A stretch of 64,000 bases of DNA from Psammoneis japonica. Taxonomy: Eukaryota. The notes under the pieces were generated by a model that was given only the letters and a program-made list of their open reading frames with translations, did no database searches and was not told where the DNA came from. This document shows positions 5,170 to 57,268 of the stretch, in pieces. Position numbers and translations under genes: made by a program. Location of the stretch: contig QPGO01000002.1 in assembly GCA_008632985.1 (NCBI GenBank), positions 496,001 to 560,000 on the forward strand, in the 5' to 3' direction. How positions within the stretch are numbered: the stretch's first letter is position 1; each line of letters opens with the position of its first letter.

Positions 5170-6270
5170 ATCATCGCTCATTTGGGTGATGTGGCAAACA
5201 ACGAGGTGGCATTTGCATGCATCAATGTCTGGTCCTGGCTAGACAGGACAACAAGAAGGTTGAGATCACTCTCCAGAACCAGGTCAGCACCTCAGTGACA
5301 CAACCCTTGCACTTCTTCTGCTGGCTCGCTCATCTCAGCAGCATGAACAATCATGTTCAGATCTCTGCCTCACATCCAGGCTTCCATTTGATGAAAGCAC
5401 ATTTGTGCACAGGCGGCCATTGTTGGCATGAAACAGGCACCTTCAGAGTGTGACACACACACCGGCTCTGATGGCCCTGCTGCTGCAACAAGAACGCTTT
5501 GCTGCCCGCCTCTGCTTTGTGCTCCTCTCTGTGCACCATCTTCAGCAGCCTCTTTGGAAAGGACAAAGTGCCGCTCTTTTGTCAAAATCTTCATTGTTGC
5601 CAGTCATTGATTTTGTTTGTGATCTCTGCATTGCCGCTGCAGAGCGCCTCAAAGAGCCCACGGTGCCCCCCTGCACAGGAGGAGATGTTCACACACATTT
5701 CTTTTTCTCCCTGTGTGTGTGAAAAGGCCTGTTCCAGCTCCAGGTGATCCGCTTTTCATCACGAGAGAGGCCGATTTTCTGCGCAGTTTGGCGTGTTGAA
5801 CTCCTTCAGTTTTGATCGTTTCGAAAATCAAAAGGCAAGTGTGCACCCAAAAATGCATGTAAAGTGTGCACTTGCCCCTTGATTTGGCAAAAAACGGGTT
5901 TTGAAAAAGTTCAATGTGCCAAATGCACAAATTGCCAAATGATTGGAATCGAACCCGCGCGGATCACCTGGAGCTGGAACAGGCCAAAAGCCCATGTGGC
6001 CTCCAACCAATGACAAGAAAGCCATCAACTTGACCAAGATTGCAGCAGTTCTGGTTGACTTCAATGAGTGGCATCTCAACTCAACCTTCCACGCATGCAG
6101 GCCAGCAGCGGCGCCCTCCCTCCCAACACTTTCGGGCTGACACCCCGCCAACTGCCAATCCATGTAGCCAGGGCCACCTCACTCATGAGATGGGGCAAGC
6201 AACCAGAACACAGCGCCATGGGCTCTGCACAAGATTGTGCCAAAGCCGATGATTTGGTTTGAATTTGATG
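5170..6270. repeat. Decayed repeat block, TpA-depleted
   Basis: Only about 3 TpA in 1.1 kb, TG/CA-rich, contains the MITE, no credible ORF. Confidence 0.6.
5726..5985. mobile_element. 260-bp MITE with perfect 27-bp TIRs, Tourist/PIF-Harbinger-like
   Basis: GGCCTGTTCCAGCTCCAGGTGATCCGC at 5726-5752 and its exact reverse complement at 5959-5985. AAAA on both flanks (possible target duplication). No coding capacity. Confidence 0.8.
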
Positions 6271-10339: not shown

Positions 10340-11960
10340 CCATGCTTCTTGAGCATTCCTGCTCACCGCACATGCACATCTCATCTTTTCAACTCCTTTT
10401 GTGAAGTTGCCGCCATCACCAGCGAATGTTCTACAGCTCGATGACGTTTCAGCTTAAGATGTGGCAGCAGCAAATCAAAGCCTTGCCATTGATTTTGCCA
10501 AGTCTTTTGTGCAAGAGGGGAAAAAAGACACAGACCTTCTCCCAGATGAGGCCAACACAAACATTGACAATCATTGTCATCGTGGGCATCATTTCACTGG
10601 CGGCAAAGAAGATCCGATTGCGGTGAAGACGTTCATTTTCTGGCTGCAAATGGGCCACCTGGGTGCCATCACATGTCTCAGGGACATTGCGTGCCTTCTT
10701 CTGCCTGTGGTGCAGAACACCCATTTTAGCTCATGGCAGCAACATGTTCATTGTCCCCCCTGCAAACTGGCTGCTTCCAAATGAGCCTGGCCCCACTCAT
10801 GGTGATGATGATCTGCTTGGTCGCTCTTGTGTTCCTCCATGAGAAGCTTGTGATTGTGATCACAAAAGTCACAATTTGTGTCAAAAGCAAGGTTGCCAGT
10901 TGACTTTGCTTGATCCAAACAGCCGGTCACCTTGTTGGAACTCAGCTGTTCTTTGCCATTTTCTTCACGACCTTGACATCCGACAAAAATGTGACCCCGT
11001 GCTTGGTGTGGCTGTTGATGGGTCCACCTTGGCAGTGCACTTGCTGAGCAACAGTGTGGCCAATTTGTGATGCTTGGAGTGTGGATTGCACGGGACTCTT
11101 CTTGCAGCTCTGGCACTTCCTTGTCAGCCACGCACCTCCTTTGCAAAGACAAAGGTGAGGGCCCATTTGCTGTGCCCGCAATCATGAGGGTTCCCAACCC
11201 AAAATTCTCACCACCTCTTAAAGTGATGCCACAACCACTGACAACATTGAAGGCGCCACCTGTCACACCACCATGAGCGAACCTGAGTGCCTGAGTTGGA
11301 AATCGCGCATTCTGCAAAGCAGTTGCCAGAGATTCCTCTCATTTTCTGTTCTTCCACCATTTTCTTGTCACACAGTTGCTGGGCTTGTTGTTGTTCTTTG
11401 ATTCTAAAATCTTCAGCACATTGTGAGCGCCCAGCAAGAAAGCCCGCATTTCCTCAAAAGCCTGTGCCGACAGGGCTGCCTTGTCAGAGTGGCTGTGTCT
11501 GTTTTTGCAGCACTGCCGCGGCAACATGATGACTCTCTCTCTCTCACTGCTCATCAGAAGCCACAAGCAGTGAGAGAAAGCGCTGATGGAGAAAGAAGCA
11601 CAAGAGGCGATTGGTGTGCTGCATCGTTGAAACAAACCACAAACCATCATGGTGAGAAAGTAAGAAACGAATGCGGTCGGCGGTCGGAGTTCAGAGTGCC
11701 GAAGTGCATGGCGAATTCGCGCGATTTGGCGGGTCCTGCTGTGACGCGTGCATCGTCACACTTCGTCACAAGCATGACCAGGCATGACAACACACACGTC
11801 ATCATTGTTCGTCACTCATGTGTGGTTCCAACTTTGGCAACATTGCAGTGCAGTGCAGCATCTAGCCCTGCAGCACTCAATGTTGGATTGCAGTCTAGAT
11901 GCACAGACTCTACAGCACGCTGACTTTGGCGATCAATTGCATGTCATCACGCGTCACCTC
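10340..11960. repeat. Decayed repeat/TE block, TpA-depleted
   Basis: About 9 TpA in 1.6 kb, only Cys/His-rich overlapping junk ORFs. Family not identifiable. Confidence 0.55.
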
Positions 11961-13666: not shown

Positions 13667-15037
13667 TCATTGCATGGCACTATGAATATCTTCCATGCTC
13701 ATTCCGTCACATTTTGACAGCAAGGAATAGTCATTACAACGCCCCAGATACCGTGCAACGTTCAGATTGGTTCCATGTCTGCCACGCAACAAAATTGGTG
13801 CACTCAGCCTGGAGGGCCCGTCCTTGACCGCCACTACGCGGTGTACCACGGCGGGTACTTGTTGTCGTGTGCATAGTTGCAAGAACTCTCCCGGCATGAC
13901 AACCACATAATGTGCATGCCACGGAATGGTAATTTTCGAATCGATAGTGTCAAACATGTCATCCGCATCCTTGCCGAGACGAGCTTGTTGCTCTTTCCAG
14001 TGGTTGCGTGCGGCTAGTTCTGGTCGGTACCAAACATTTGCAATTTCGTCGTACACCTCGAGACCACTCGTGGCCGCCACGGGTACCATAGTAGTAAAGG
14101 ACGAATCCGTGTGAGCTCCAAACACCTCTCGAGCGGACGACGTTTGAGGCTTTGCTTCCTTGTTGTTTGTATACCGACAGAGCCGATGTGGACTCATACT
14201 GACGGGTCCCTCCTGATGTGGTATACTATCCAGCGTTTGTTCGAGTGGTCTGCCGTCATCGACAAGCTCATTGGCCAATCGATTTGCCGCCTCGGATGCT
14301 AGAGACTCGCTCGAAAAGGCTCCAGCTTGGATACTACTCGCAGCGGTCGCACTTCGAACTATATCCTTTCCAATGTCTGCAACGCCTTGATAGGCTGCTC
14401 GCAAGGCCTCCAACGCCTCTGTATCCAATAAGTCCTCAGCTTCTTTTGGGACAAAACCAATACTATGGCGTTTGAATCGCGTCTCGAGAAATTGCATTGA
14501 CCCATTGTCGTAGTTGGCATATCCCACCACCGCGTGTCGTGAACCTCCCTCAACTTGAGACATTCCAGGCATCGACATGTTTGAAGTATCTTGATTGAGA
14601 GTTTCAAAAAAGTCCTCTGCAGCCGTCCACATGTGAGCTAAGGATGATGCTAGTGTGTAATTTGTCCCATGGTCCGTCACATCCACCACCAAGGCGCCGT
14701 GCGACAGAGCTTCCAAAACGTGCTCTTGTTTTTCTGGAAGCAACAAATCCGATCGAGATATTATCCGTTATGCCAGCTCGTCACTTGTCCCTGCATATGC
14801 CTCGTCCTCATTTTCGGTGGCAGCGTGTGGTGGAAGACGAGTCCGTCGAATACAGTCCTTGGATAGCGACTCGAGTGAATCAATCTCATCCACGGATGAC
14901 ACAGAGGAATGCAGAACTGGGACACGTTCTTTGCTTAGAAACGCTCTGCGAGCATGGCAATTTATAACTGGGGTAGAAACATAGCCAGAAACCCCTATGA
15001 CGCATAGACTCGCAAGTATCCTGAAGTGGTGAGCCAT
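13667..15037 (-). CDS. 2-oxoglutarate/Fe(II)-dependent oxygenase (IPNS-like fold) with signal peptide; in-frame TAA at 14770-14768
   Basis: GAHTDSSFTT (HxD), VHRVV (distal His), RLSAP (RxS), VVMPGEFLQ. The N-terminal segment MAHHFRILASLCVIGVSG is in the same frame as the main ORF. Confidence 0.8.
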
Positions 15038-15304
15038 TGAGACAGTCCGTGGTAATGGCGTTGGACGTTTGAACGGCGACGCATCTATCATCATTGCTCT
15101 TGCGATGATCATTTTTCATCCACAGACGACAGACGCACAGAGCACAGGATTCTTCAAAGATGCGATCTGCGGCTGCGACGTCACCAAAAGGGTGCGGATG
15201 GAATTACAGACGGTGCCGAACCCCGTCTTGCTTGCAAGCGCTTGGCTGGCTTGTACCGGCAGGAGTACATTGCATGTTGTACAATCGAATGCGTTGGCAC
15301 TCGC

Positions 15305-16470
15305 ATTGTGACGACCTCAGCAGTGCTCGGGATGCGCTTCTTGGACGTGGCTCCTCATCTTCTAGAGTGGCTCTTCCATCATCTCTTCTTTCAATCTCTC
15401 AGTCTGGCCTTGTTTTCCTTTTTCGCCTGCTTTCTTTGCCCTTCTTGGTGACCACATTGGCAGCATCGGCTGCCACCACTTTCTTGTTCACACCTTCTCC
15501 TGCGGTTCCTCCCAGGTGCTTCCTCTTCTGCCCCACCTCCTCCTCCCCCAAGCCTCCTTGGAGCAATCTCCCACTGACTTTCAAAACTCCAGCCCTTCCT
15601 TCTCAGCCTGCCAGCTCTCCCTTCTTTCTCCGACTGGCCTCCTCACCCAAGTCGACATTCTTGCCCAGCTGGCAGCGTCTCTCTCCAGACCATCCCAGCT
15701 CTTCTCTCCACACTTCCACCCCTCAATCCTGGGCCACCCAGCTCCTCAGCTTCAACTTTGGCCTTGCCAAATCCAATCACCTTGCTGCTTTCAACCCTCC
15801 CCAGCTCTCCCCCCAAAAATTTTTCACTCACTCATCTGTCCGCACATCCGGCCCCCTTTCTTCTCTGCGGCCCACCCCTCTTCTCTCCACCACATGCCAC
15901 ACTCTGATTTTGTTCTCTCCGACTCTCCTGCTCCACAATTCCTGGCTTTTGCTCAAACAATGCACCACACTGATGGTGGTGACATTGTGCATTTGTTTGA
16001 ATCTCACTGCTCTCGCAATCCTTTCAAAAAAAAGTTCTTCAACAAGCCACAATGACTTGATGAACAGTGTGTTGGCCGCTGCATTGCATCAACTGCAACT
16101 CAGGAGCTCTCTTTTGTTTTCATTTTGAGAGAGTGATTTTTGGATCTCTGCAAGTTTTTGAAAAATTTTGTTGACATTGAAGATCGCTGACAGCTTTTGA
16201 TTGATGAGAGCCCCTGTGGGCAGAATGCCAAGGAACAAGCACTGGTGAAGATGGGGCCACTGTTGAGCCCATGAGTTGAGGCCTCAGTCACTGCCTCTCA
16301 GCCCCTTTCTCATTGTTCAAGTGCATGTGCAAGTGGAATGCTGATTGCACAAAGAGCACCTCATGTGATCAAAAAGATTGGCACAAAACAGAAAGTGGGT
16401 TGTTTATCAGCACACTGAAACGAAGCGTTGACAAAAGTGGCGCAACATCATCATCAACTTGCACCTGTGA
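15305..16470. repeat. Decayed repeat block, essentially TpA-free
   Basis: No TpA found between 15365 and 16404; CpG also scarce. Confidence 0.6.
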
Positions 16471-16583
16471 CGTACAGACAAAATTTAGAACGTTGCAGTA
16501 AGTGTCCACTATTTGATCACGTATCACGTATTACAATATATATGTTAAAACAGCATTAGCCAGCAGACAAACTGGTTCTCGTA

Positions 16584-18584
16584 TCATCCAATCCAAGGTG
16601 CAATGGCCGTCATGCACCCGACGAGAAATAAGGCAGATTTGTGTGCTGGCGCCAACCAAGTGGCGGAAGAAGGCGGATCGGTCGGAGACAATGGCGTGGG
16701 TGGCATTATATCATTACCAACGAGTGTGTAGCCGCGATTTTCCAGACCGGTGTAGCATGAATCGATCACCTGATTGCTCAGAGCGCCTTCTTGGCCGACG
16801 ACTTGTCCTAGGAATGCCATGCCTCGATCACTGTGCCGATAAAAGTGACAGTGTGCAAACAATTCCGTGACGTAAGTTGCCAAATGAGAACGAAGGACCG
16901 CTTTGCTATAATTGTTTTCTTCAGAAATGGGAAAGATGAGAGTGTCGTGGAAATCCCCAACTTGGAAATAATCTTGGTGAGAATCAATCTCGGGCATGTC
17001 CGCCACTTGATACGAGAAGACGTGCGTGTGGATGGGATGGATCTGTGGTGCAAAGTAATCAATCTCCCAAATACTGCCAGTCTGTAATGTCAAGTCTGGG
17101 TCTGAAGGGCCCAAGTACTCAATCAAGGGAGGGTCAAACGGGCCATAGTTGTTAATGGCGTAGTAGCTAATGTTGCCACTGTCCCACGCAGGACGATCTT
17201 CAGGTAACATTTCACCAGGTCCGAGTGGAGGAGTAAGGCCCGACTGAAGAATGTATGTTGTCTCGTCTGGAGTGGCATTCAACATATCTGGTAGGTAACA
17301 AGGACGTGCTACCATAAACTCTGGAATATCTTGCGTTTCAACAGTTTCCGATGGAGCATTCACTTGAATGAATGCCATGGTTCGATCCAAAGAAGGACGC
17401 TTCTGAGACGCGATCCAGTTAGAGGAATCACGGAGGTCAGAGAGGGATTTGAATTCATACGTCCCTTCTTGAGCACAGCGCACCAGCAAATCGGCGCGAG
17501 ATCCGCTAAACATGTATCCAGACTCGACATCTCGAGGCGTTGTGGGCATGTACTTTCCGTCTTTGGCCAGCAGCTTCACGTCACATCCAGCCAAGGCTGG
17601 TTCAATGGTTCGAAAGCGTGTAGGCACATAAAGCATACGAAAGCGATACCACTGCCCAGCAGCAATTTCAATTGTTGGACGCTCCACGCCATTAATGGTG
17701 AGCGTCTCGTACTCCAGGCCGTCGGGCGCAAAGGTCGTATTGTATTGGCCAGCCTCTGGTCCATTCTCAAAGAAGGGTTCGGCGCATCCATCTCGATTTT
17801 CTTCTGGAACACAATGCCGGCGGCAGAGTGCGACGTAGCTAAAATTGCCTCCAGTGGCGTAATCATACTGGAGGTATGTGAAGTTGAAGAACTGGATCCG
17901 CATGAGCACTTCAGGGAGGTTTGCAACTTGAGACGGAATGTCACCCTCGAGATCCTCGACAATGAGCAATCCAAGAGCTCCACCTCCAGCTTGGAGCGTC
18001 GTACTACCCGCGACGTGCGGATGATACCAGTGGGTACCGCCTTGATGCATTTCGGGAATGTTAATCGTGTACTCATGCTCGTCTCCTGGAGGAATCTTGA
18101 GAAAGGTCGGGTTTTCTTCTGCAGGAACAAACACACCGTGAACGTGAATGTTTGTTATACTGATTGCATGATACTGATTCCACATTTCCGGGACGCTTGT
18201 ATCGCACGCCTCGGCCGGAAGGTTGTTTTGCAGAGTAATGCGTAGAGTATCTCCAGGCTTGACACGGAGAGTTGGGCCGCCGATTTCGCCATTGTACCCA
18301 ACCACCTTTTGTCGGAGACCGGTGGCTGCGTTTTCATACAATGCCTCTCCAATAGAAAGGTTAACATTAAGTACTCCATCAACACTCGTTAAGACTGGTT
18401 GATCATCTGGATAGATGGCTTCATTCAAGGCAAGCCTGCGATTGGCCGACGAAGATTGATGGGCGGGAAAAAACTTGCTCTTGATGCCTGCCGTGAAAAT
18501 CGACGCCTCAGACAACGTAGCCAGAAACGGCACGGCAGAGAGGAATCCAGCGAGAGAGGATGACGGCACAGCATGGTGGGGCAT
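16584..18584 (-). CDS. Three-domain multicopper oxidase, secreted, probable C-terminal membrane/GPI anchor
   Basis: All four copper motifs present: TNIHVHG, THWYHPH, HPIHTH, HCHFYRHSDRGM. N-terminal hydrophobic signal, Pro/Ser/Thr linker and hydrophobic tail. Intronless. Confidence 0.93.
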   Translation of the reverse strand: MPHHAVPSSSLAGFLSAVPFLATLSEASIFTAGIKSKFFPAHQSSSANRRLALNEAIYPDDQPVLTSVDGVLNVNLSIGEALYENAATGLRQKVVGYNGEIGGPTLRVKPGDTLRITLQNNLPAEACDTSVPEMWNQYHAISITNIHVHGVFVPAEENPTFLKIPPGDEHEYTINIPEMHQGGTHWYHPHVAGSTTLQAGGGALGLLIVEDLEGDIPSQVANLPEVLMRIQFFNFTYLQYDYATGGNFSYVALCRRHCVPEENRDGCAEPFFENGPEAGQYNTTFAPDGLEYETLTINGVERPTIEIAAGQWYRFRMLYVPTRFRTIEPALAGCDVKLLAKDGKYMPTTPRDVESGYMFSGSRADLLVRCAQEGTYEFKSLSDLRDSSNWIASQKRPSLDRTMAFIQVNAPSETVETQDIPEFMVARPCYLPDMLNATPDETTYILQSGLTPPLGPGEMLPEDRPAWDSGNISYYAINNYGPFDPPLIEYLGPSDPDLTLQTGSIWEIDYFAPQIHPIHTHVFSYQVADMPEIDSHQDYFQVGDFHDTLIFPISEENNYSKAVLRSHLATYVTELFAHCHFYRHSDRGMAFLGQVVGQEGALSNQVIDSCYTGLENRGYTLVGNDIMPPTPLSPTDPPSSATWLAPAHKSALFLVGCMTAIAPWIG

Positions 18585-18829
18585 GTCTGAGCGAAGAGTG
18601 AAACTACAGTAGTACCGGCAGGGCAGATAGATGATGATGGGCTGGGTGTCGTAGCAGAGAATACGTATCTTTTTTGGATCTTTCATTTGTGGTGACACCC
18701 TGATGCCAACACGACGCTTCCTGGTATGGTACATACGTGATGACGTGTTGACAAGGCGTTCTTCAACTTGAAGAACGCGGTTTGAACCTTCGCCAGCCCA
18801 GGACAACCTCGGAGCTAACTCTCTCTTAG

Positions 18830-21800
18830 CAGCTAGAGTGACGTTTGGTTGATTTCAAATGTTTGGATTTTATGGACACGGCTCCAAGACAGTTGGCAGA
18901 CCAGCAGTTTCTCGAGTGACAATGGGACTGTTCTGTTGCTTTCGCAATGTGGTGGTTCCCATTTGTGCCAGCAGGGCTGTGGACACGTTTCTTGGGTTTT
19001 TTGCGCACACTCTTTTTGAGCCATGCAACATGCACAGCTTCCTCTGCAGCTTGAGGGGTTGCCCAGCCATCTGCGGGACCCAACTTTTGTGTTTCTTCTC
19101 TTGACTTCTTTGGCCCCCATTTGTTGAGAGACCCTCCCATTGTCCAAGTGTTGGAGCATTGGGGTGCGAGGCATTTTGGGAGGACAGGCAGGCAATGTTC
19201 TTCTTGCAGCGAAAGATTGCTGACGATTGCGGTGGATGACATTGGCAGTTTGCACTCACAAACTGTCTGTGAATGTGGTTTTTGTGCTCACTTTTTAGCT
19301 TCTTCTGCACCAGAACAACACGACAACATGGCAATGGCATCAGACATGTGTTTGCAATTTGTGCGGTGGTGAGAGTTTTTTCTGGTGAGACCAATGACAC
19401 AAACTGGTTGGCAAACCTTGAAACTCCAACAGACTGAGTCACACTCTCTCTAGCCAAGTTAGTCAATGGGCATTTCCTTTGCTCTTTGGATGCCAGCCAG
19501 CCCCAGGGCTCCATGTGACATGGGCTTGCAAAATTCTGCATGCAAGCTCTGTGGCTGTCACACTGGAAAATGAAGATTTTGGTCTTTGACATCCAAACAA
19601 ATGACCAACTTTGCAGCACAATTGCATCTCCAACAGGAATCTCTCAAAAATGACACATGTGATGGCCACACAAATTGCTTCAGAATGTCTGCAGAATCTG
19701 CAGCAAGTTTTTGCACCAAAGCTGTTGTGTGTCTTCTCACAATTTGTGCAAACACAGACTTGGCTGCTGTGGTCAGATCAGGCGCATCCTCCCTGCAAAT
19801 GAGTTGTTTTGATGTGCAACTGATTAGATGACAGTCAATGGTCCATTTTTTGCAAAGGTGAAACTCGCCAGTGGCAGAAATGTGGACAATTTGACATTTT
19901 TCTTGGCACTGGTGGTCTGCACAGTTTCTGTGCCATGACTGTGCAGCACGAAAGGTTGCTGTTGTCATGCTCAAAAATTTTGAGAATTTGCCTGCACTGC
20001 ACACCATTTGGAGATGTTTAAAATGGTTTTGTGAAAAAAATGTCAAACATTGTTGAATGGATGGCCCAGCAACTGCACTGCAAAACATTCAAAGAGCCGC
20101 CAAAATCACGCAAAAATGCACGTGGTCTCACCTGGAGCTGGAGCATGTTCATTGACCAAGCCATGCTCCACACTTGTGATGTCTTGCAAAAAGCTGAGCT
20201 TTCAAAGCTGCAAGTTACAGTTTTTGGACAAGTGACAAGCCTTTGGCTGCACTTTTCTTTTTTCTTGTAGTGCTGTCATGTGTGGCCGGGCTGGCTTGCA
20301 CTTGTTTTCACAACAACCACACACCTCATCCATTGCCTTGAGAGTTTCCAGTGCTCAGCACACTTTTCTGATTTCCTGAGAGCTCTTCCCATGATCTGGA
20401 GTGTGCACTTGCTTTGTTGGCAGCAAAAGTGCAGCGTGTTGAGCCTGCCAAGTGTTGGGGCATTGTGGCACACCCTGCCCCTCAACCCTTTGCCCGCTCC
20501 TGTGGCACTTGCAACAGCAGGGTGTTTGAGGCAGCATTGGTGCCCACACAGTTTTGCTGTTTCTTGCCAACACTGAAGTTTTTTGCACAAGAAGGTCCCA
20601 GTGAGTTTCCAGGGCTCAAGGCTGGCTGGTGCATTTTCTGGGAGAGGGTCTTGCTCATGGCATCAACGCAGTTGTGAGCTGGCTTCTTCCAGGAACTGTG
20701 GTTGCCTCCTGAGGAACAAGGCAGCCCCGCCAAGAACCATCAAGTTGCAAGTCGCTGCACAGCTCTTTTGGAACCTTTGGACTCCTTCAAGTGCTCACTT
20801 TTTTTTTTTGTTGTCACATTTTCTGCCAAACAGAAACACATGTCTCATCACTGCAGAGAAAGCTGCATGGGGCCACAGCACATGATGTCAAAACTTGAAG
20901 TTGTGCCAAATGCAGTGTGCAGCAAACAGCAAAAAGAAACTGCACCTCCCACCATGGGGCATGTTTGTTTGCATGTGACCATGCAGCTGATCAAGTTGAG
21001 AGTGCACCACATCTCATGTCAACAAGACAGTGCTGGACTTGCAGTGCAAGTGTTCCAGTGTTCCATTTCTTGTTTTCTGTTGACCACTCCATTGTGCTTG
21101 GACACACCATCAATTGCTGTGAACTCTCACTGCCACACACAAGACTGCAGCTGCTGGGGCTCATTTTCACTGTGTTGATCACAGTGCTGCTTGTGCTCCA
21201 AGGCACAACAAGTGTGTGCGCCAAAAGCAAAACTTCATTTTCTGATGTGGTGGGTGCAGACAATGATGTTTTAATTTTCCTGAGCAAGGAAATTGTTGCA
21301 TGAACAATGTGCCATGTGAGCACCAAGCTCAAGTGAGAGGGGGGCAGCTTGTTGGATGTTGCAAACAGTTGTTGGCAGATTTGTGTCAATGAGGAGGGTG
21401 GTTTGATGGCAACAACCAAATGGCTTTCGTTCAATGGAGTGGGGTTGGTTGCTGGATGTTTGATTTTCTCCTGCTCCTGTCTCTTCTTGTTGTTCAGGGA
21501 ATTTTTTGGGCATTCTTGAAAAGCAACAGCTCTTGTTGCAACCACAACACCTGGTGCTCCCCATGGTGTGTCTTGCTGCACAGCTCAACTGTGTGGTGCA
21601 GCATGCACAGCGTGCTTTGTCATGGCCATGGGGCAGTGTGGGAAGCCAAACAATGCCATGGAAGGCAGCTCCAAACTGCCATCTGCAGCCAGATCTAGAG
21701 TCAGCTCAATGAGCTCATTGCAAATCTGCACTCAAAGGTTTGGAGCAGCTGCTGCCCTTTGCACCTTTTCCTCACATCTGCATGCCATCTGCACAGGAGT

Positions 21801-24480
21801 CAAATTCACCACCAGCAGAGTTCGACACTCTGACTGGCCAGACACCCAACAAGTGAGCACTGTCCTCTGTTGACTCCACCCCTGTGCAAGGGCTGCCATG
21901 GGATGCAGGTGGGTGTGATGTGTGACGACATCATCACATGCATTGAGTTGCACATGTGCACATTCACACTGATGATCACATGTCATCAAGCAATGACTCC
22001 CATCCCACAGCACCCCTGATTTTCTGACCATCAAACACTGGGGGCACAGCATTTGTCCATTTTTCACCCATTTTCACACCACCTGAACAAGCATGTCACA
22101 TCAACTCCACCATGACGGCATCTCCTCCATCATCACCAACAACTTGCCAGGACTCTGTTCCCACTGAAATTGTTAAAGTTGACACTGCTGTGAGAGGTGA
22201 GCCTGTTGCTCAGGCTGTTGTGTGCCTCACACATCCCAAACAAGAGTGCACAAACTCACACTTTTTGTTTTCACACTCCACTGCCTCCTCACCTCCCACA
22301 GGTGATGCCCCCTGTGGTGATGCTGTTGCACCTGCCCTTGACATGGCAGGTGTTGTTCAATGTGTTTTCCTCCTTCGCCCAATTGCAAAATTGTCAAGTG
22401 GTGCTGACTTGCTCACACCTCACACTGCAGTGCCTCCCACATGTGATGGGGCCCTGGCAATGCCATCCGTGGCCCCATGCCTCCCACCGGTGACACCACT
22501 GCCACCCACTCCCCTGCTCCAACACCTGCCTGTGATGCCACCCCTCCCATCGGTGTTTCCACTGTGCCCATTGTGGAGGACAATGCTGTTGATCCAGTTG
22601 TTGTGACAACAACAGACACACTCAAGGGACTTGCTTTGCTTCAAACTCAGATGATTGCAAACACTGCAGAAAAATCAACAAAACCAATGGAAACCATGAC
22701 CAATTTGGCAGCATGTGAGTCAAGTTGGGGGCTGCTTTGTTGGTTCAAGTGTTTTGTCATTTGGTCCTTGCAGAAAAGATGGTCATCATGCAGTGCCATG
22801 CTTTGCAGAAATGACATGGAGGATGAGTCCACATGCAAAAGATTTGACTCAGCTGCAGCTGGAGGAAGTTTACAAAGATGAAGAAGATGTTAAACTTGAA
22901 AATTCTTTGACAGGTTGGACAATGTGATTTCATGCAAGAACTGGTCAAGATGAAGTTCCACAATGATGACAATGCAGCGCAGTCTCTGTCAACAACAAAA
23001 AGCAGTTTCTCTTTTAACAAGAAGAGCTTCTCCAGAAAGAGTGCTGTGCCTGTCATCACATGTCAGATGCAAGTGTGTCCACCCAAAGCAAAAGAAAGCT
23101 TGTGTCTCTAACTCAACATCAGATGCACTCATTGCAGCTCCATTTTATTGACCAGGCAGTGTGCATCTTGATCATGAAGGGCATGCTGGGCTTGCTGGTG
23201 ACAGAGTTCCAATGGGGTCTCAGCACATTTGCCACACAGTTTCTTTGTCATTTGGGAAACATGACAGCCCAAGAAACAACACTGCCTTTGTTGGTGGGTG
23301 CAGCAGGAACAGTGTTGGGTGTGCCAGTTGCAGGAAAGGTGGTGACTGGGGTGCAAGCTGCTGCAGAGCTGTGCCCAAGACCCAAGACTGTCTGACACCA
23401 TCGTGGGTGCTGAAAGCCACCAGAGCTGCACCCAACAGCATCATTCGATTCCATCACATCTGCCCTCATGCTCGGTGGGTGGCACAACCAGCACTGGGGT
23501 GCATGCACTGGAGCATGAGAAAACATCGACTGTGGGTTTTTTTGGAGCACAACAGCTGCAGATTCATCCTCACCCACTCTGTCAAAATGGGTGCAGCAGC
23601 AGCAGCAGCAGCGCATGGGTGCACTGGTCCTGTGACTGAAAGGCTGACAATGTGCTGGCATTTGTGACAGTGTCTGTGGCAGGTGCTGCTGCAAGAGAAA
23701 ATCAGTGCCAGTTTGCAGCGCATCATTTTGGCTGTGTTTGGCACAAGAGAGGCAAAGCAACAACGTTGCCTCTTGCACCAGGCGCATTGGGAAGAACAGC
23801 ATCGGGTGCGGCACTTGTGGGGCATGGAGCTGCGGTGTTGTCATTCATGACAGAAGCTGTGCCAGGTGCCAGAGCATGAGAAATGGAGTGTCTGCAAATG
23901 AGCTCTAATTTCAGAAGCAGCAGGCGCACGACAGAAACAGTTGCGACATTGCCCCTGCGACACACCAGAGTCATCATTGACAGGAGCATCAATGGGCGCC
24001 ACATCATGGGAAGGTGTTGATGATGAATCGCTTGACATCATCATGGTGGACTGTTGTTGATGCATGGTTTTTGTGTGTTGCACAAGAGAGGGAAAATGGC
24101 AAAGTGCCGCCCCTGGCGGTGGTGGCTGTTCTCAGTTTGGTGGCCAGAGAGGCAGAAAAAGGGAGAGAGTGTGGATCAGGATTTTCCCTGATGTTCTTGT
24201 GAGCATTGTTTGTGCACAAATGCTGAATTTCGGTGAATGCCAACATGTGAAAATTTTGATGACATCCAAATTGCATCACCGCGCCATCACACCCATGCTC
24301 TTCCCTTGCGTGAGGGGTGTGTTGACTCCAGGGACAACTCTGTGATCACCTGCTCTGGGTGCCCAGTGTTTGGCCACATCAACGGGCCCGCCTGACAATT
24401 TTTCTCATGGGAGTCCCCCGCCCCTCTCACCAGAAGTGGAGATAAAGGCAGAGGCTTTCTTTGTGGGGCTCTCGTCTCTC
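18830..24480. repeat. Large block of decayed TE remnants, TpA- and CpG-depleted
   Basis: About 16 TpA in 5.5 kb, dense overlapping Cys/His-rich ORFs. A partial copy of the MITE TIR (TCACCTGGAGCTGGA) lies near 20128-20142. Confidence 0.65.
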
Positions 24481-47038: not shown

Positions 47039-47990
47039 CTAGCGCGTGCATCTCCAGCAAATCTCGTTCTGTGCATGCGAGCCATCCAGGCTGCTCCGAT
47101 GCACTTCTTGATTTCCTGCCTCGGGCATTGTGCATCTCCGACCTGCATGCGTGCTCTCAGCAAACTCAACAGCGACATCCCGTGCTTGGCATGCCTGAAA
47201 CGAAGCTACCACCAACCCCCATGTGGCAATAACCAGCACAGACACGCACCCTGCAAACGCGTCAGACTTGCAAATTCCTCCTGTTTCCACTGTCTTCCCA
47301 AACACGTCCACTCGGAGCATCTCACGCTCCCATGCCAAGGGAACTGTCCCCGTCCAAATTGCGAGCGTCACCGCATCAACAAGCAAGAGAGCGACCAACG
47401 GCGCCATTGGGTTTGTGAAATGTTTTGTTTGTCTGCCATGTCATGCTGAATGACGCAGAAAAGGCAAGAGCAAAACCAAGGATGAACAGCTAAGGTGTGC
47501 TTTGACATGCAAGGTCACAACCAGCTTTGCTCTCAATTTTGTCATCGAAACTCAAAGGAAGGACACATGCAAGATTGCGCAACCGAAACATTGCATGAGC
47601 CCTGTCTTCACTTTATGTGGCAAAACACAGACGGCTGTTGCATCATACAGCACCGCATGTGAAAAGCAAGAAAATGGACTGTGACGCCTTGACGACTCTG
47701 CCCATTCTGCAGCGGGTGGTCCAGACCCCGAATGCAATGAGAAAGAAGAATTATGATGGCGGAAAGGGTAAAGCCAAGGCCACGCAGCACCCCGTTCAGG
47801 CAGCTGTAATCCACCTGGACCTTTGGCAGAGGCGGAGACATGTTGGTTGTTCCATCGCAGTAAACACATGGGGCCAAACTACGCCACGTTCCCATCTCGA
47901 ATGATGTCTGCCCGACAGCATCAAACATGACATTTTCGGTTTCAGTGTCTTTTTGGCAATGAAGTTGAGCAACTGGTAGCATGCGTGGTC
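47039..47990 (-). pseudogene. Class C (GABA-B-like, 7tm_3) GPCR fragment
   Basis: LAIWTGTVPLAWERE..VETGGICKS..QACQARDVAVEFAES and LRGLGFTLSAIIILLS, broken by frameshifts and stops. Confidence 0.65.
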
Positions 47991-48559
47991 AAATCAAGAA
48001 TCCCTGTTGTCGGGTCAATGGAAAGGACCCTCAGCACCCACAAACCTTTGCATTGACAGGATGCTCTTAATGGGAGACGCCGTCAAAGTGAGTGACGGTG
48101 TCTGATGCAGCACAAGCAGCCAATCCCATGGAGATTGTGGAATCATGCAGAAAGATCCCCAGATCTGGAGACTTGAACATTCTTTCGACTGAAAGCTGAT
48201 CTCCACGTGATCGGGATGGTTCTGGAGCTCTTACATTCGAAACCAATGCATCTAGCGCACGAGTTCCTGGCATCCTGGCTGGACAAAGAGCGTGGAACTT
48301 GTTCCACGAGCCACTTGCAGGATGTAGGCATCTGAGAAAAATCCAGACACAGTCAGTTCCAGCAATCCCCTGGCGACAGCAAACCAAGAGTGTCAGGTGG
48401 TTTACCGGTGGCAGCTTCTAAGAGAGAGATTCCGCCTGGAACGTCGCAGCAAGTGTTGCCCCATGGTTGTGTGTGTGGTGGTTTGTGTGGTTTGCCTCGT
48501 ACAGTGCTGCACTGCACAAAGTGCGAAACAGCGATCAACATTGTGCAAAAAACATGTCT

Positions 48560-48805
48560 CTCCTCGCACTCAAGTTTAGATGGAGACGGACTGACTCAAA
48601 CCGACCTCGCTCGATGACTGTGACCTCTCGCTGGATCCGCGACGGAAGTGGGGCACTTCCGACTCAAGATGACTCGGTCTAGTCTTCTGACTGTGACCGG
48701 TCAAACTTCGGTTTTCTTTTCTCTCACTTTTCCAGCTTTGTTGGAACAGGAACCCTGATCATCGTGACTGGATCACTCAAGCTCGGAAAAGCATTCTTCT
48801 TTTTA
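48560..48805 (+). repeat. Split direct repeat A1 (246 bp)
   Basis: Aligns ungapped to 57006-57251 with differences at 4 sites. Confidence 0.95.
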
Positions 48806-48817
48806 GTCTCCCTCATC

Positions 48818-51282
48818 ATGTCGGATTTCTTCGCCTCGGGTATCTCGGATGATGCGTTCGTTGATTTAGCTCGTCAACTGGAGTCGGATGTTGTCTCGCC
48901 TTTCTCGTCGAGCTCTCCGGCGGCTCCCTCTCCTCAGGCTCGCCCCTCTGGGGCTGCGCGTCAGGGGGGGGGTCACGAGGGCTTAAATCCTCGAGGCACA
49001 AGCGATGACATTTCGGGGGGTTGTGGTCATCCCCAGTCGGACATTGACAGGGCAGAGTTGGGGGAAGTCATTTCCCACCCTCCAGGAACTCACGTTTTGG
49101 AAGGAGACGCATCCCGCCCGGTTCAGAGGGAAACCCGCTCGTCTCGGGTTGGTTTCTTTGGGCGGGATTTGTCAGGTGACATCGGAGGCACGGTCGAGTC
49201 GGAGAGGGAAGGTGCGTCTTCTTCATCCTCGCATGTGCCTCGTCATTGAATCACCTGGCTGGAGGCTGTTGGGGCACCCCGGTGCTTGGGGATCAAGGGC
49301 GGGGAGGAGCCACCTTCTGTCTCAAGAAGGCAAGCGAGTGCAATGTGAGGCACAAGGGTGGCAAGATGAGCATTCCGGCGTCGGGTGTGGCAGTGATCCT
49401 CAAGTCCCCGGACACGGGTTTTTGTCAACCCATCCTAAGCGGTGGGAACATGTCTGGTGGATTGTTGGTCAAGTGGGAAGCCGAGTCGGATGCGCCAGCC
49501 GGTTGGCGGCAGAAATTCTTGGTGCTGGGCAATGGTGAACCTTTTTCCACCAAGGACGAGGTCGAACCCGCCCTGAGGGAGTGTGAAAGGGCGGCCGAGT
49601 TCAAGACACTGGCTCGGAAGCAGTGGCCGGAACCGTCAACCCTTCAAGAGGATGCCGTGCTGGAGGGGTTCACGCCATGCGAGAAACGAATGCTCTCCAC
49701 CCCGGCGCAGTTCCCAGCGGCAAACAAAAGTCCGTCCGCGTTGGCCCGTGTGGTCCAGTCGACCGAGGATGGGTTGAGGCAAGCCGGGGAAGTGCTGGCC
49801 GACTTTGGCGACAAAGCTGGCAGGCGATTCCACGCTGCGGAGTCTGTGATTGAGATTCTGAGCCGGAAGCTGGATCAGCTCGACGCGTCTGTCGGGGAAC
49901 CGACCCAGGGGTTTGATGGGGCTCTTCTTGCCCCTGCTCTTTGGGGTGCGCTGGCAAACGTTGCATCCCGGGAAGCCGGAACCCAATCTCCGGGCCCAGT
50001 CGAGCATGTCACACAAGTGGAGACGGGGTGGCGAAGCCAATCTAACAATCTGGTGAGAACTTTCAACGAGAAGTTCCAACACATGCAAGATCGGATGGGA
50101 TCGACGGCTGGCCGCACGGATCTGGAAAACCTGAAGAACAATGTGCTTCGGGTGTGCACACAGCTCACTTCAAAGGTCAGGTCAATCAAGCCCCAGTTTG
50201 GTTCGGGGTTTGCACCTCACGGCGCTTCATTCGATCAAGGGTCCGTGGAAGCAAGGGTCACACGCCTAGACCGCGCTGTGAGTGAGTTACGTGCAAAGTC
50301 AGACAAGTCTGCCATTGAGTTCTCAGGGGTTGGCGCATCATCCTACGAGGAGTGTCAAGCCTGGATGACACAGCCTTTCCCCTCGAGGGCATGCGGGTGC
50401 TCAACTGATGTCGTCTTGCTCTTGGACCGAATTAAGGGGATCGAGCCCACCGCTCTGCATCACTTTTTGTCTCAGTGGGCCAAGCGAATGAGTGCGAACA
50501 TCGCTGCCGAGGAAGACGCGTGAACTCTGGCGGGTTTCCAGTGTCGCATGCCTCGGATCTTCGACTCAGGATCTGTGAAGTCGTCTCAGACCTTGGGTTT
50601 GCACCCCTCTCACTTGGACAAAATCGAGACCCACGAACACTGGTCTTCGGGGAATGTCGGAACAAAGCACTTCATCGAGGGGAAGATCGCCACAATGGAG
50701 AGCGACATCATGGAAGACATTGGCCAACGCATCAGACCGGGAACATTTGAAAGTCAGGTGGTCCGGGACGCATTGTCGAAATCGGTGGCATTTCTTCGGG
50801 CGCTAATTCAGTTTATGGACTCTACTTGTGCATCACTCACCGACCTGAGCAAGTTCTCCAAGAAGCAAGCGTGGTCCTTGATGACTAAATTGACTCACCG
50901 CATTTTCGAGGACATCCACAAGGCGCGCTCCGGGGTTTTTACCTCCATTTCCGGGACGGACCCAGATGCAGTGTGCAGCAAGATTTTGTGGGCGGTGTTT
51001 TGGACCCACGATGTTGTGGCAGAGCACACCTCTCTAGGATTTACCGACCACCCTTCTATGGCGTCGGAACACGTCAAGTTTCTGGCCACAAACTCGGGAT
51101 TCGAGGTGGCAACTGATTTGCAATCTTCGGTGCTGACGCTAACGGAGAAAGCCAAGAATGCCAGCTCAGAGGCTGAGTCAGCCCAGGCCCGAGGCGACTC
51201 GGCGCACGTCGAGCTGGGCAAATTGCGAACGGAAATTAAGGACCTGACTCGTCGGCTCAAGGCTTTGGAGAGCAAGAAGTGA
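48818..51282 (+). pseudogene. ORF1 (gag-like) of the YR retrotransposon, disrupted
   Basis: ATG 13 bp after A1. A frameshift before 49246 and an in-frame TGA at 50521-50523. Cys/His knuckle-like FCLKKASECNVRH and C-terminal coiled coil. Confidence 0.7.
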
Positions 51283-51354
51283 AATTCATGGGGAACGGAG
51301 GATGCGGGGGAGGGCCAGGTCTCGTTCGACAGGCCGAATAACCTGAGGCACATC

Positions 51355-54300
51355 ATGCGGGGCAGAAAGGCCTTCTGTTTTCAAGGATCTTGCTTGATTC
51401 TCGCCTCCGGTCCCCCAATCTGGCTCTTGTCCTTGCGACCAAAGGAATGGCCTGCTGTTTGTCACTGCTGCGACGACTCCCACTGGGGTTCTCCATCAGT
51501 GGAACTGTTTCGGAACCAATTGAATGCCTCCTTGGCACGGGTCTCATGGGCAAGGGTTGAACAACTGACCAGGCGGGTTGATGTTGTGTTCGTGTCGGGG
51601 CCACCTTCGTTCCTTGAGTCCGCAGCTCATGCAATGCGGTCGGGATCTTTGATCATGATCCCTGTGGGAGCGTTTTCGCGTCGCAGTCTTCTGGGTTTGA
51701 ACCAGCTACAGCGGCGGGACATTGCACATGCGGTGGTGGGCGGTGTCACTTCCTTTCGGACTGCACTCTTCTGGCGGGGGGTTCCTGCTCCGGTCTTTGA
51801 TGGAGGCCTGCGGCGGTCCATTGGGCACATCATCGACTGTGAGCCACCCGGGTCACCATCGCCACAACACCCGAGTGGGGAATTTTACAATGAGGGCGAC
51901 CATCTCAACCCACAGTTTCTGACCCGACCAGTCGTGCACCCATCGCATCGGTCGCCGACAGGTTGGGTCACCCGCACACTGTCTGTGGATGAGACATTGG
52001 CGGCCTGGGATTTTCGTTTCCGCACGCCTCAGGTGCATCAGGCTTTCGAGCGGGGATTTCCTCTTGTTCCGTTGAATCTCCTCACACTTTTTGTGGAGGC
52101 ATTTGTTGATCACACGCCCCGGAATTCGTCACAACCTGGGGGCGTGGTGTGTGACAACACGGAGGTCGGGGTCCCGGTCTGCCAGGCCAGAACGTGGCTG
52201 CCGACTCTCGGACGCTGCTTACCCCACACTTGGATCGACGCACCCCTCACAACGGCGAAAGCTGCAAAGGGGGATGCGGCAGCCCCTCCTTTCCGGTTGT
52301 GGGATAAGAGGATCACTTTGATTTTCCCGGGGTCTGGCGAGGCTTTGCCAGCCCTTCGGGACTTGGCGCACCGGTGGTGGCGGCGAAAGACCCTTCAGTC
52401 TTTTCTGGGCTATCTGCGCCGGGAGCATGGTCCGACTTGGGTCGCCATGCTGGCGACACAACGCCGACGTTTTGGGGATGCCACTGGCGTCTTCAGGGGG
52501 GGGTTTGCCGCCACCCTCCACTCCCACGCTTGCTTCTAGACGCACACCTTGGGACTGAGGTGTTGGCGCAAGTGTTGGACAGCTCCTGGTGGAGTTGGGA
52601 CCGAGGTTCGTCTCTTTTGTTCTGGCAGTGGCCCACTCTGGAACAGCGGGTGGGGGCTCGAGATGGGATCCAGACATTTGTCAAGGGCCCTCTCCCTCGC
52701 AATCGCCGACGGCAGAGAATCCGGGGGTCCGAGCACGAGATTCTTAGGATGGTGGACAAGATTCAAAAGGTCCGAGACCAAGGTTACATCCATTGTGGGA
52801 GGGTGGTTAGTCTAACTGATTGTTTTTGGGTCCCAAAAACCGTCCGTGTGGAACCCCAGAATGGTCGCTTGGTGGAAATCGTTGAAGACGTGCGAATGGT
52901 TTACAACGGAACCTCCTCGGGTTTAAACGACGCCCTCTGGGCACCCTCATTTTTCTTGCCCACTCCTGCGTTGGTTCTGGGGTGCATGACTCGTGCCACC
53001 TTTTCAGTGGATCTCGACCCAGGCGACATGTTTTTAAACTTCTTCATGGATCCCAACATTCGGCCACATGCGGGGATCGACTTAACGCCTCTCAAGCCAC
53101 ATCTCGGGTCCCAGGAGTCGATCTCGACGGGCACGCCCTGGTTCGAGCGTTGGAACCGTTTGTTTGTGGGGATGCGGCCCAGCCCTTGCTTGGCGGTGAG
53201 GGCATTTTGTTGGGCCGATGAGATTGCCAGAGGCGATCCAAACCGACTCTCCAATGTCATGGGATACGACAAGCTGCTCCTAAACTCACCAGGGGATCCC
53301 AACTTCCAGACGGAGAAACCGTTCGTGATGAAGTGGAATTCTCGTCGCAAGGAAATTGCTGGCGACATAAAAACATTCGTTGATGACTTGTGCGGAATGG
53401 GGGCTAATGAGGAATCCGCCTGGCAAGTTGCTCACCAAATGGCCTCGCGGTTGCAGTGTCTTGGACTGCAGAATGCTGCCCGGAAGGTGCGCCCCCCCTC
53501 GCAGGTTGAGACCGGAGCCTGGGCTGGCGCCATTTTCCGAGTTATCGATGGGGATGTCACTCAGTCAGTTTCCCAGGCCAAATGGGATAAAGCCAAGGGT
53601 GTCATTGCAGAACTGCTTGGTTTTTACGCCGGGCGTCCGGGGGGCTTCCTCCCTGCATTTGACTTTGAGGATCTGGAGCGGAAGAGGGGATTTCCAGTCC
53701 ACCTTGCGATGACTTGCCCCTTTTTAACACCATTCCTTGGAGGAATCCATTTGACCCTCGACTCCTGGCGACCAAATCGAAAGAAGGATGGTTGGGCGAT
53801 GACTGCGAAAGAATTCGCAAGCTGGATTCACCACCTCGCTGAGAAGCAGGGCCTTGACCCGTCAGAGGTTGCTGAGGGGCTAAGGGATCAACCGCCCCCT
53901 CCGCAGGTCACGGCTGTCCCTCGTTTGTTCATGGATTTAACTGCCATGTCCCGCGTCACGGAGTCTCCGACCCCTTCTGCGGTCATCATCCAGTCCTCAA
54001 AAATTGTCACTGTCCTCTGTGGCTTTGGGGATGCATCTGGAAAAGGCCTTGGGACCTCCCTGGAAGCAGCGGACGGAACCATTGTCTTTTGGGTCGGTGT
54101 GTGGGGCGATGATGATCTGGGGAACTCCTCCAACTGGAAAGAGTTGTCCAACACGGTGGACGCCATCCAAGAACTTGGGGAGCAGGGGGAATTGACCGGT
54201 GCGTGTTTGTTCTTTTTTGTGGACAACTCAGTTGCTGAAATGGCTTGGTGCAAGGGCACCTCGACCAGCCCTCTGCTGCTTGAGCAGGTCATTTGCTTGA

Positions 54301-55223
54301 AATCTTTGGAGGCCAAGCATGGGATTGGGCTGTGTCTCACACATGTCTCGGGGGTGCAGATGACAGCTCAGGGCACTGACGGAGTGTCCAGGGGAGTCTT
54401 GACCGAGGGTGTCATGAACGGAGCCAAGATGCTTTCGTTTGTCCCTCTCCATCTCGGAGCCACAACTCGGTCGGCTGCTCTCTTTGCGTGGGTTCAATCT
54501 TGGGCTGGGACTCCAGCTCCGGAACTGCTGACCCCCTTGGATTGGCATCGGAAGGGTCATGACATTGCGGGGTGGAGCTGCCCAGCCTGCAAAGCTGTCG
54601 AAATGCCCCATTTCAGATTGGGCACGTGGGTCTGGGCTCCACCTCCAGCCGCGGCGAGAGCGGCTCTAGAAGAGCTCCGGATTGCAAGAATCAAGCGCCA
54701 GACATCGTTCCACACATTCATCTGCCCGCGTTTGATGACTCCAGAGTGGCAGAAACAGTCGCACAAGGCGGCGGACCCAGTGTTTGCTGTCCCGGCTGGA
54801 TCAAGGCCATTCTGGCCAGGTGACATGTTCGAGCCCTTGCCAGTTGGCCTTCTTTTTCCGTTCGTCTCCTGCAGCCCTTGGCAGCTTCGGGGAACCCCGA
54901 AAATGTGTGCAATGGAGCGGTCCCTGCGTCGAGTGTGGCCGGATGCTACGGTGGACGAAAGGAATGTTTTGCGCAAATTTTGTGCACAGTGCAGGAATCT
55001 GGCCGGCATGTCGGAAGGCATGGTGTCCAGGGTGCCATGCTTCGAGAGAAAGCGTGACTTTCCATCTGGGGGGGACTCTGGAGGACGACCCTCAAAACGA
55101 CAACGCGCAATCTCTCGGGGGGGACCGCCCAAGGCTGGACGACAATGCTTGGTGTCGGAAGCCTCAAGACAAAAACAAGTTTGTACGGGCTCGCATGGGA
55201 GATCATCCAATGGTTGCCTTTGA
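51355..55223 (+). pseudogene. ORF2: reverse transcriptase and RNase H, frameshift at the G-run near 52496-52503
   Basis: FWVPK, DVRMVYNGTSSGLN, DLDPGDMFLNF, GMRPSP, TFVDDL; RNase H GFGDASGKG, SSNWKEL, FVDNS, DGVSRG. Confidence 0.88.
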
Positions 55224-56442: not shown

Positions 56443-56555
56443 CTTGGGACGGTCGCGAGCCCTTGGCAATGCTGGGCCTCCGGAGGACAGTCTTCCAGCT
56501 TCCTGCTCTCCGGATCGACATTTTTGGTGGCCACTGCCCAGGATTCTCATCGGGG

Positions 56556-57008: not shown

Positions 57009-57251
57009 CTCGCACTCAAGTTTAGATGGAGACGGACTGACTCAAACCGACCTCGCTCGATGACTGTGACCTCTCGCTGGATCCGCGACGGAAGCAGGGT
57101 GCTTCCGACTCAAGATGACTCGGTCCAGTCTTCTGACTGTGACCGGTCAAACTTCGGTTTTCTTTTCTCTCACTTTTCCAGCTTTGTTGGAACAGGAACC
57201 CTGATCATCGTGACTGGACCACTCAAGCTCGGAAAAGCATTCTTCTTTTTA
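57006..57251 (+). repeat. Split direct repeat A2
   Basis: Copy of 48560-48805; overlaps B1 by CTC. Confidence 0.95.
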
Positions 57252-57268
57252 CCCACCCACCACACCCT

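What the first reader, a model, noticed from the sequence alone, without database searches (positions are those of the whole stretch)
15365..16404. Kilobase TpA deserts with sharp edges between normal genes
Seen: no TpA in about 1040 bp here, while 16471-16560 immediately downstream is full of TA (gtattacaatatatatgttaaaa). Similar deserts lie at about 5170-6270, 10340-11960, 18900-24440 and 42900-46300, and depletion continues to 64000. Flanking genes keep normal Tyr codons and TAA/TAG stops. Inference: the process is delimited to repeat or heterochromatic intervals within about 100 bp and is not a genome-wide compositional bias.
Basis: partly seen in the sequence, partly recalled or inferred. 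Interest (0 to 1): 0.75.

Follow-up and report, generated by a model that had tools for sequence, protein, structure and literature searches.

The report
TA-erasing mutation of diatom repeats
In this diatom, old jumping-DNA copies and dead gene copies have had nearly every TA step rewritten to TG or CA where they lie, while neighbouring genes are untouched, an odd targeted mutation that I found described only once, in an unrelated alga, and whose enzyme is unknown.

Summary
Confirmed: 15365-16404 has 0 TpA (61 expected), and an assembled sequencing-run contig spans it with no other letters. The host is a raphid pennate diatom. The deserts are largely decayed repeats: transposon relics and dead copies of host genes. 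Comparing copies shows a directional, both-strand TpA->TpG/CpA mutation acting on DNA after insertion. 233 of 299 differences between the two LTRs of 38 Copia elements are TA versus TG/CA. Copies lose TA about ten times faster than CG and roughly a hundred times faster than other steps. TAC/TAT is hit twice as often as TAA/TAG. Source genes, ordinary intergenic DNA and, in two of three families, the 5' LTR are spared, which fits a chromatin cue better than RIP-like pairing. Closest known: TpA hypermutation of integrated viruses in Bigelowiella natans (2026 preprint; enzyme unknown). Five or fewer of 240 Copia proteins from other assemblies carry the same Tyr->Cys/His scar. The scan already noted this on many other pieces of the same genome. 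The process is shown; chromatin targeting is inferred; adenine deamination is a guess. About 450 bp of this desert has no detected copy.

The parts
15365..16404 (.). TpA desert of the finding (0 TA; CpG o/e 0.22; TG 1.62, CA 1.50)
15314..15960 (.). Relic of an old dispersed repeat family of unknown class; 11 matches elsewhere at 10 places, 65-83% identical, all TA-poor over the match
   Evidence: best score 140 bits against at most 46.7 for 50 local shuffles
15961..16470 (.). TA-poor stretch with no homologue found
   Evidence: only the first 61 nt of the query matched one other place
13667..15110 (-). Flanking gene, 2OG-Fe(II) oxygenase, TA-normal; start near 15110 is my reading of the frame
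16584..18854 (-). Flanking multicopper oxidase ORF, TA-normal; its stop lies 110-180 nt from the desert edge
5242..6165 (.). TpA desert containing a 260-nt MITE with terminal inverted repeats (5726-5985)
10457..11960 (.). TpA desert with homologues on other contigs; right edge set by a young TA-rich repeat at 11965-12596
18873..24443 (.). TpA desert with a TIR-bounded element (21876-24321) that carries a TA-erased piece (22625-23180) of a TA-rich ORF in L034
42877..46330 (.). TpA desert, part of a multi-copy block
47139..48314 (-). TA-erased copy of a class C GPCR-like host gene (TA-rich relative in L050): 28 of 33 source TA read TG/CA here
48560..57724 (+). 9.2-kb repeat element with split direct repeats and a tyrosine-recombinase-like ORF; TA low, CG near normal

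Best explanation
The desert is the end state of a targeted mutation process of this diatom. It acts on chromosomal DNA, on both strands, after a repeat has inserted, and turns TpA into TpG or CpA (one A:T pair to G:C), best at 5'-TAC/TAT read on the strand whose A changes. It hits site by site, probably over many generations, until almost no TA is left; ordinary CpG decay follows about ten times more slowly. Result: conserved tyrosines become Cys or His and transposons are crippled. SHOWN: direction, context, both strands, in-place action, repeat bias, sparing of source genes. INFERRED: the cue is silenced chromatin rather than copy pairing (about 0.65), and the edges mark where silenced chromatin meets a gene, promoter or newer insertion. 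GUESSED: the chemistry is adenine deamination in DNA to inosine by a TadA/ADAT-fold enzyme (about 0.45); a thymine lesion read as C about 0.2; error-prone repair synthesis about 0.1; other 0.25.
For: LTR pairs: 233 of 299 isolated differences in 38 pairs (from 40 loci) are TA/TG (116) or TA/CA (117); CG class 47, other transitions 8, transversions 11. TA-rich versus TA-poor pairs: TA->TG on either strand 266 of 335, reverse 12 of 1054, AA/CA/GA->xG 0.04-0.06 (11 pairs, some sharing a source). L146 versus L148 at 90% identity: 230 of 279 TA changed to TG/CA, 2 reverse. Per copy in five Copia families (44 copies): TA lost 0.23-0.84, CG 0.013-0.137, other changes 0.002-0.024; youngest family (11 copies) TA lost 0.02-0.24. 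The same conserved Tyr column reads Cys in one copy and His in another while Trp and Phe columns stay (18 copies). Hazard by base after the A: C 0.64, T 0.70, A 0.30, G 0.31; 24 of 35 surviving TA in four other hard deserts are YTAR, the cold context. Identical LTR sequence is spared at the 5' end: kept 5'/lost 3' 114 versus 14 (family E), 35 versus 8 (F1). TA-rich source genes stay intact. Same signature measured de novo in B. natans.
Against: No enzyme identified: the deaminases found are housekeeping types (TadA-like, ADAT2-like, dCMP deaminase-like, one deaminase-dioxygenase fusion), found with one family only. TAT is as hot as TAC, which fits a tRNA-type ADAT2/3 substrate poorly (my recall that its tRNA targets do not have U after A34). 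5' LTR sparing fails in family F2 (23 versus 34). TA loss shows no trend with distance to the nearest CpG (0.60-0.69), and across copies follows CG loss in only 1 of 4 families tested, no better than it follows general divergence. 43% of this desert has no detected homologue and no TA-rich source of its repeat was found, so direction at 15365-16404 itself is inferred from other loci. Site counts are not independent events, and the per-copy rates use a site definition that favours mutated sites. No methylation, chromatin or RNA data.
Confidence: 0.75

Rival explanations
1. Reverse RIP: the trigger is pairing of homologous copies, as in fungal repeat-induced point mutation, but with opposite chemistry.
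For: Targets are repeats, including duplicated host genes and duplicated DNA-methylase genes; a chromodomain ORF lies next to a DNA-methylase match, like the RID-related diatom DNMT4 (PMC9998398 passages).
Against: One partner is often untouched, even a few kb from its mutated copy (L034 versus L036); identical LTRs of one element are hit unequally; neighbouring hits are not on the same strand (1811 versus 1707); the main B. natans target is single-copy.
Confidence: 0.1
2. Error-prone repair synthesis (polymerase eta type) around lesions in methylated DNA.
For: Polymerase eta favours A->G after T or A (recalled); TA and CG loss co-occur in old deserts.
Against: AA->AG is at background: 0.0035-0.0054 against 0.05-0.19 for TA in six families; TA transversions are almost absent (8 of 4439 observations); no trend with distance to CpG.
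Confidence: 0.07
3. TpA mutates fast in all untranscribed DNA; genes and their margins are merely protected by repair or selection, so repeats are not targeted.
For: Both edges of this desert lie within 110-250 nt of a gene end or start; part of the desert has no homologue; intergenic stretches tested are under 1 kb.
Against: 7 of 7 ordinary non-ORF stretches keep TA; DNA flanking most Copia insertions in TA-rich DNA stays TA-rich up to the LTR while the element loses over half its TA; TA-rich flanks stop at the end of the 9.2-kb element in L168-L170 and L179.
Confidence: 0.05
4. A-to-I editing of element RNA, fixed by reverse transcription.
For: RNA adenosine deaminases prefer a 5' U (listing, 34); slight sense-strand excess in palindromic contexts, 503 versus 446, p = 0.07.
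Against: The two LTRs of one insertion differ, with both products equally; TIR elements and host-gene pieces are hit; both strands interleave within a copy.
Confidence: 0.02
5. CpG decay, GC-biased conversion, compositional bias or assembly error.
For: CpG is depleted in the hard deserts.
Against: CpG decay does not remove TA; TA is lost where CG is nearly intact; other A->G contexts are flat; a read-derived contig matches.
Confidence: 0.01

Closest known systems
TpA hypermutation of integrated NCLDV and virophage DNA in Bigelowiella natans (Mettrop et al., bioRxiv 10.64898/2026.01.13.699255; parts 1-3 of 5 read, plus a term search)
   Same: A/T->G/C transitions confined to TpA, giving TpG and CpA; local, orders of magnitude above background; TpA-poor, TpG/CpA-rich clusters and transposon domains among TpA-poor CDS; ADAT2 offered as candidate; enzyme unproven.
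   Different: Rhizarian versus stramenopile host; there two viral inserts measured in mitotic lines, here Copia, MITE/TIR and YR elements and dead host-gene copies driven to near zero TpA; here CpG decay accompanies it, a TAY preference and 5' LTR sparing are seen; the preprint's main text has no 'diatom', 'stramenopile' or 'CpG'. Its supplements, which could show the wider motif, were not seen.
Repeat-induced point mutation (RIP) of ascomycetes
   Same: Dinucleotide-specific hypermutation that disables repeats and duplicated genes, with sharp domains.
   Different: RIP makes TpA from CpA/TpG (recalled; C->T); here TpA is removed. RIP hits both copies in strand-coordinated runs (recalled); here sources are spared and hits are not strand-coordinated.
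CpG decay of DNMT5-methylated diatom transposons (Hoguin et al., PMC9998398; passages only)
   Same: CG->TG/CA in transposon copies at 5-10 times other changes.
   Different: It is the slower, second process here and cannot remove TpA.

Membership tests
B. natans-type TpA hypermutation | Excess changes are A/T->G/C transitions at TpA | tested here: met
   233 of 299 LTR-pair differences; direction 266 of 335 against 12 of 1054
B. natans-type TpA hypermutation | Both products, TpG and CpA | tested here: met
   116 and 117
B. natans-type TpA hypermutation | Local rate far above the genome background | tested here: met
   Relative only: TA lost 0.23-0.84 per copy against 0.002-0.024 for other steps; absolute rate not measurable
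B. natans-type TpA hypermutation | Targets foreign or silent DNA, spares host genes | tested here: met
   Transposons and dead copies hit, source genes and gene blocks spared; viral inserts not examined
B. natans-type TpA hypermutation | Arises de novo in clonal lines, in some lines only | not testable with these tools
   Copy-to-copy spread (L081 0.24 against 0.02-0.09 in ten siblings) is compatible but no test
B. natans-type TpA hypermutation | Same enzyme | not testable with these tools
   Unknown in both; an ADAT2-like gene with HAE, PCxxC and the Asn named in the preprint is present, but ADAT2 is a general housekeeping gene (recalled)
RIP | C->T at CpA/TpG, raising TpA | tested here: not met
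   TG/CA->TA 0.0035-0.008 per site
RIP | Both duplicates mutated | tested here: not met
   TA-rich sources beside TA-poor copies
RIP | Strand-coordinated runs | tested here: not met
   1811 same-strand against 1707 opposite; many rounds could blur this
RIP | RID-like methyltransferase required | tested here: inconclusive
   27 DNA-methylase matches, one beside a chromodomain ORF; not placed in a tree
Polymerase eta WA mutagenesis | A->G raised at AA as well as TA | tested here: not met
   AA->AG 0.0035-0.0054
ADAR/ADAT RNA hyper-editing fixed by RT | One strand only, before insertion, retroelements only | tested here: not met

The most novel reading that the evidence does not exclude
Diatoms, and perhaps other SAR algae, have a dedicated chromatin-guided DNA adenine editor that works as a heritable anti-transposon defence: it reads a silencing mark, deaminates A in TAY on either strand, and is shared in mechanism with B. 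natans. It would be a third class of mutational genome defence beside RIP and AID/APOBEC, and a natural double-strand DNA A-to-G editor.
Probability: 0.3. Interest if true: 0.9.

Novelty: new variant of a known kind. Interest (0 to 1): 0.68.

Why it matters
It extends a mutation signature that I found in one 2026 preprint on a rhizarian alga to a second supergroup, where it has reshaped much of the repeat DNA examined. A diatom with the signature offers genetics to find the enzyme and the targeting mark. It also has practical effects: LTR-based ages are inflated several-fold (78% of LTR differences are of this class), TAA/TAG loss creates long spurious ORFs in dead DNA, and Tyr-poor, Cys/His-rich proteins in databases can be mutated relics.

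Tried and rejected
No TA-rich source or protein family found for the 15314-15960 repeat. HVDD in place of YVDD in some reverse transcriptases was first noted as evidence and then dropped: those are other families and the change is unpolarised. The majority-state count first suggested that family E's ORF was TA-poor by inheritance; one search showed independent loss per copy, so those rates are underestimates. No TET/JBP match (0 candidates; introns and a loose first look mean absence is not shown). Metagenome scan gave one 1.3-kb locus, TpA o/e 0.37, uninformative. No RNA holder listed. Differences between the window and run X1: of 40 rows shown (13 not shown), 22 lie on X1 single-copy contigs and 20 of those fall in deserts, including three CA/TG double changes, but none is a TA site and assembly error cannot be excluded, so not used as support. 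No tRNA in the window; no PDB match for 54739-56439. Literature searches that found no report for diatoms: (open-access library only; listings read, not full texts). Neighbouring genome stretches and longer flanks of this repeat family were not obtained, which leaves the family's ends and class open. ADAR, ADAT3, MT-A70, glycosylase and polymerase families were not searched.

Full report
Observation. The interval 15365-16404 contains no TpA where 61 are expected; the nearest TAs begin at 15363 and 16405. In the 18.3-kb gene block 24500-42800 the longest TA-free gap is 148 nt, and a 1040-nt gap has a chance near 1e-18. In the five hard deserts CpG is also low (0.15-0.49) and TG and CA rise to 1.5-2.0, so that pyrimidine-purine steps as a whole stay near expectation: TA and CG were converted, not avoided. 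A contig of run X1 covers 12565-18699 with no other letters, so this is not an assembly error.

Host and setting. Named relatives of a flanking aldo-keto reductase are from raphid pennate diatoms (Mayamaea, Seminavis, Craspedostauros, 70-73% identity). The genome is 91 Mb in 597 contigs. The desert lies between a 2OG-Fe(II) oxygenase gene and a multicopper oxidase gene, both TA-normal. Its edges are 170-250 nt from the likely start of the first and 110-180 nt from the stop of the second. All 7 ordinary non-ORF stretches tested keep TpA o/e 0.45-0.86.

What the deserts are. 15314-15960 matches 11 stretches at 10 other places at 65-83% identity; the best score, 140 bits, is far above 50 local shuffles (at most 46.7). 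All these matches are TA-poor. 15961-16404 has no homologue found. The other deserts hold a MITE (5726-5985), a TIR-bounded element (21876-24321) with a captured piece of a TA-rich ORF, a dead copy of a class C GPCR-like gene (47139-48314) and a 9.2-kb element with split direct repeats and a tyrosine-recombinase-like ORF. Coverage by fetched homologues runs from 28% to 100% per depleted segment, 57% for this one; these are lower bounds.

Direction and context. Where a TA-rich relative survives, TA->TG on either strand occurred at 266 of 335 sites, the reverse at 12 of 1054, and A->G after A, C or G at 0.04-0.06 (11 pairs, not all independent). For the GPCR-like copy inside the window, 28 of 33 source TAs read TG or CA while 32 of 51 CGs survive. 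A Copia pair at 90% identity shows 230 of 279 TAs changed and 2 reverse changes. The cleanest test is the two LTRs of one element, which are identical at insertion: in 38 pairs from 40 loci, 233 of 299 isolated differences are TA/TG (116) or TA/CA (117), 47 are CG class, 8 other transitions and 11 transversions. The change is therefore made in chromosomal DNA after insertion and on both strands. In 18 copies of one family the same conserved Tyr column reads Cys in some copies and His in others, while Trp and Phe columns are almost unchanged: each copy was mutated independently. Per copy, five families have lost 0.23-0.84 of TA, 0.013-0.137 of CG and 0.002-0.024 of other steps; the youngest family has lost 0.02-0.24 of TA (the site definition favours mutated sites, most of all in the two small families). 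On the strand whose A changes, TAC and TAT are hit about twice as often as TAA and TAG (0.64, 0.70 against 0.30, 0.31), and 24 of the 35 TAs that survive in four other hard deserts are in the cold YTAR context. Neighbouring hits are not strand-coordinated (1811 against 1707), and strand bias in palindromic contexts is weak (503 against 446, p = 0.07).

Targeting. Repetition alone does not decide. TA-rich source genes are intact, in one case a few kb from a mutated copy (L034 and L036). Young MITEs keep TA. The same LTR sequence is spared at the 5' end in family E (114 against 14) and F1 (35 against 8) but not in F2 (23 against 34), where both LTR-containing end bins are less hit than most of the interior. 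Flanks of most insertions in TA-rich DNA stay TA-rich (14 loci, by eye). This fits a position-dependent cue such as silenced chromatin, with promoters and genes excluded. It is an inference: TA loss shows no trend with distance to CpG, and follows CG loss across copies in only one of four families. Some edges are simply later insertions (11965).

Mechanism. Shown: an in-place, both-strand, TpA-specific A:T->G:C mutator biased to repeats. RNA editing with reverse transcription, CpG decay, GC-biased conversion and polymerase eta-type WA mutagenesis each fail a test above (AA->AG stays at 0.0035-0.0054). The chemistry is open. Adenine deamination is my first guess (about 0.45) because it gives pure A->G with almost no transversions and TadA/ADAT enzymes prefer a 5' U/T (partly recalled). 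Against it, only housekeeping-type deaminases were found with the one family searched, and TAT is as hot as TAC. No TET/JBP match was found, which weakens but does not exclude a thymine lesion.

Beyond this genome. Among 240 Copia relatives from public assemblies, four show heavy Tyr->Cys/His replacement at conserved columns: P0132 (8 of 12), P0176 (7 of 12), P0150 (7 of 11) and P0308 (7 of 18); a fifth, P0249, has 2 of 18; the other 235 have at most one. In P0132 and P0150 conserved Trp and His columns are unchanged. Their best full-length matches in G000 are 64% and 58% identical (only the best candidates were scored), so they appear to come from other genomes; P0176 and P0308 were not tested this way. 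Their hosts are unnamed; that they are diatoms is inferred from the relatives. The search favours intact proteins, so 4-5 of 240 is not a prevalence.

What is known. The preprint by Mettrop et al. (bioRxiv 10.64898/2026.01.13.699255; parts 1-3 of 5 read; term search; supplements not seen) measured the same TpA->TpG/CpA change de novo, about 1000-fold above background, in two viral inserts of Bigelowiella natans, and proposed ADAT2. It does not mention diatoms. Eight searches of the open library (listings only) gave no diatom report; subscription papers were not searched. Hoguin et al. (PMC9998398, passages) describe DNMT5 and RID-related DNMT4 in diatoms and do not use the word TpA. The finding meets the four testable features of the B. 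natans process and fails three features of RIP. Earlier notes of this scan report the same process on many other pieces of this genome (90 and 113 notes held the search words); they are not independent support.

Verdict. A real and striking feature: the saturated footprint of TpA hypermutation in diatom repeats, a new variant of a process that I found reported once. Interest 0.68. If it proves to be a dedicated chromatin-guided DNA adenine editor (probability about 0.3), 0.9.

Noticed in passing
window 48560-57724: 9.2-kb element with split direct repeats (48560-48812 with 57006-57258; 56556-57008 with 57269-57724), an ORF that looks RT/RNase H-like to my eye (52308-55223, no Pfam hit) and a tyrosine-recombinase-like ORF (54739-56442; Atlas look-alikes carry Phage_integrase in 20-86% of members): probably a DIRS-order (Ngaro/PAT-type) retroelement; copies at 79-95%.
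   Followed up: partly
L110-L129 (Copia family E): The 5' LTR plus leader, about 900 bp, keeps TA (16-39% lost) while the ORF has lost about 50-90% per bin.
   Followed up: yes
L103-L105, L109: Several duplicated DNA-methylase gene copies are themselves TA-poor, some with stops.
   Followed up: no
P0132, P0150, P0176, P0308: Copia proteins from other public assemblies with conserved Tyr replaced by Cys or His.
   Followed up: partly
window 11965-12596: Young TA-rich repeat with copies up to 99% identical; some older copies are TA-poor (L155, L160).
   Followed up: partly
window 42649-42862: End of a short repeat matched at 95-100% over 57-65 nt by more than a dozen contigs, abutting the desert edge at 42876.
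   Followed up: no
G000, RVT_2 matches: Stops inside the 150 reverse-transcriptase matches are TGA in all but one of the rows that have any, as expected if TAA and TAG are erased.
   Followed up: no
L096:319-1791 (-): ORF joining a zinc deaminase domain to a 2OG-Fe(II) dioxygenase domain; probably metabolic, not examined as a candidate mutator.
   Followed up: no
L130, L134, L135, L141, L144, L145: Copia family F2 carries an internal stretch of several hundred bases with no TA or CG at all, likely a simple repeat.
   Followed up: no
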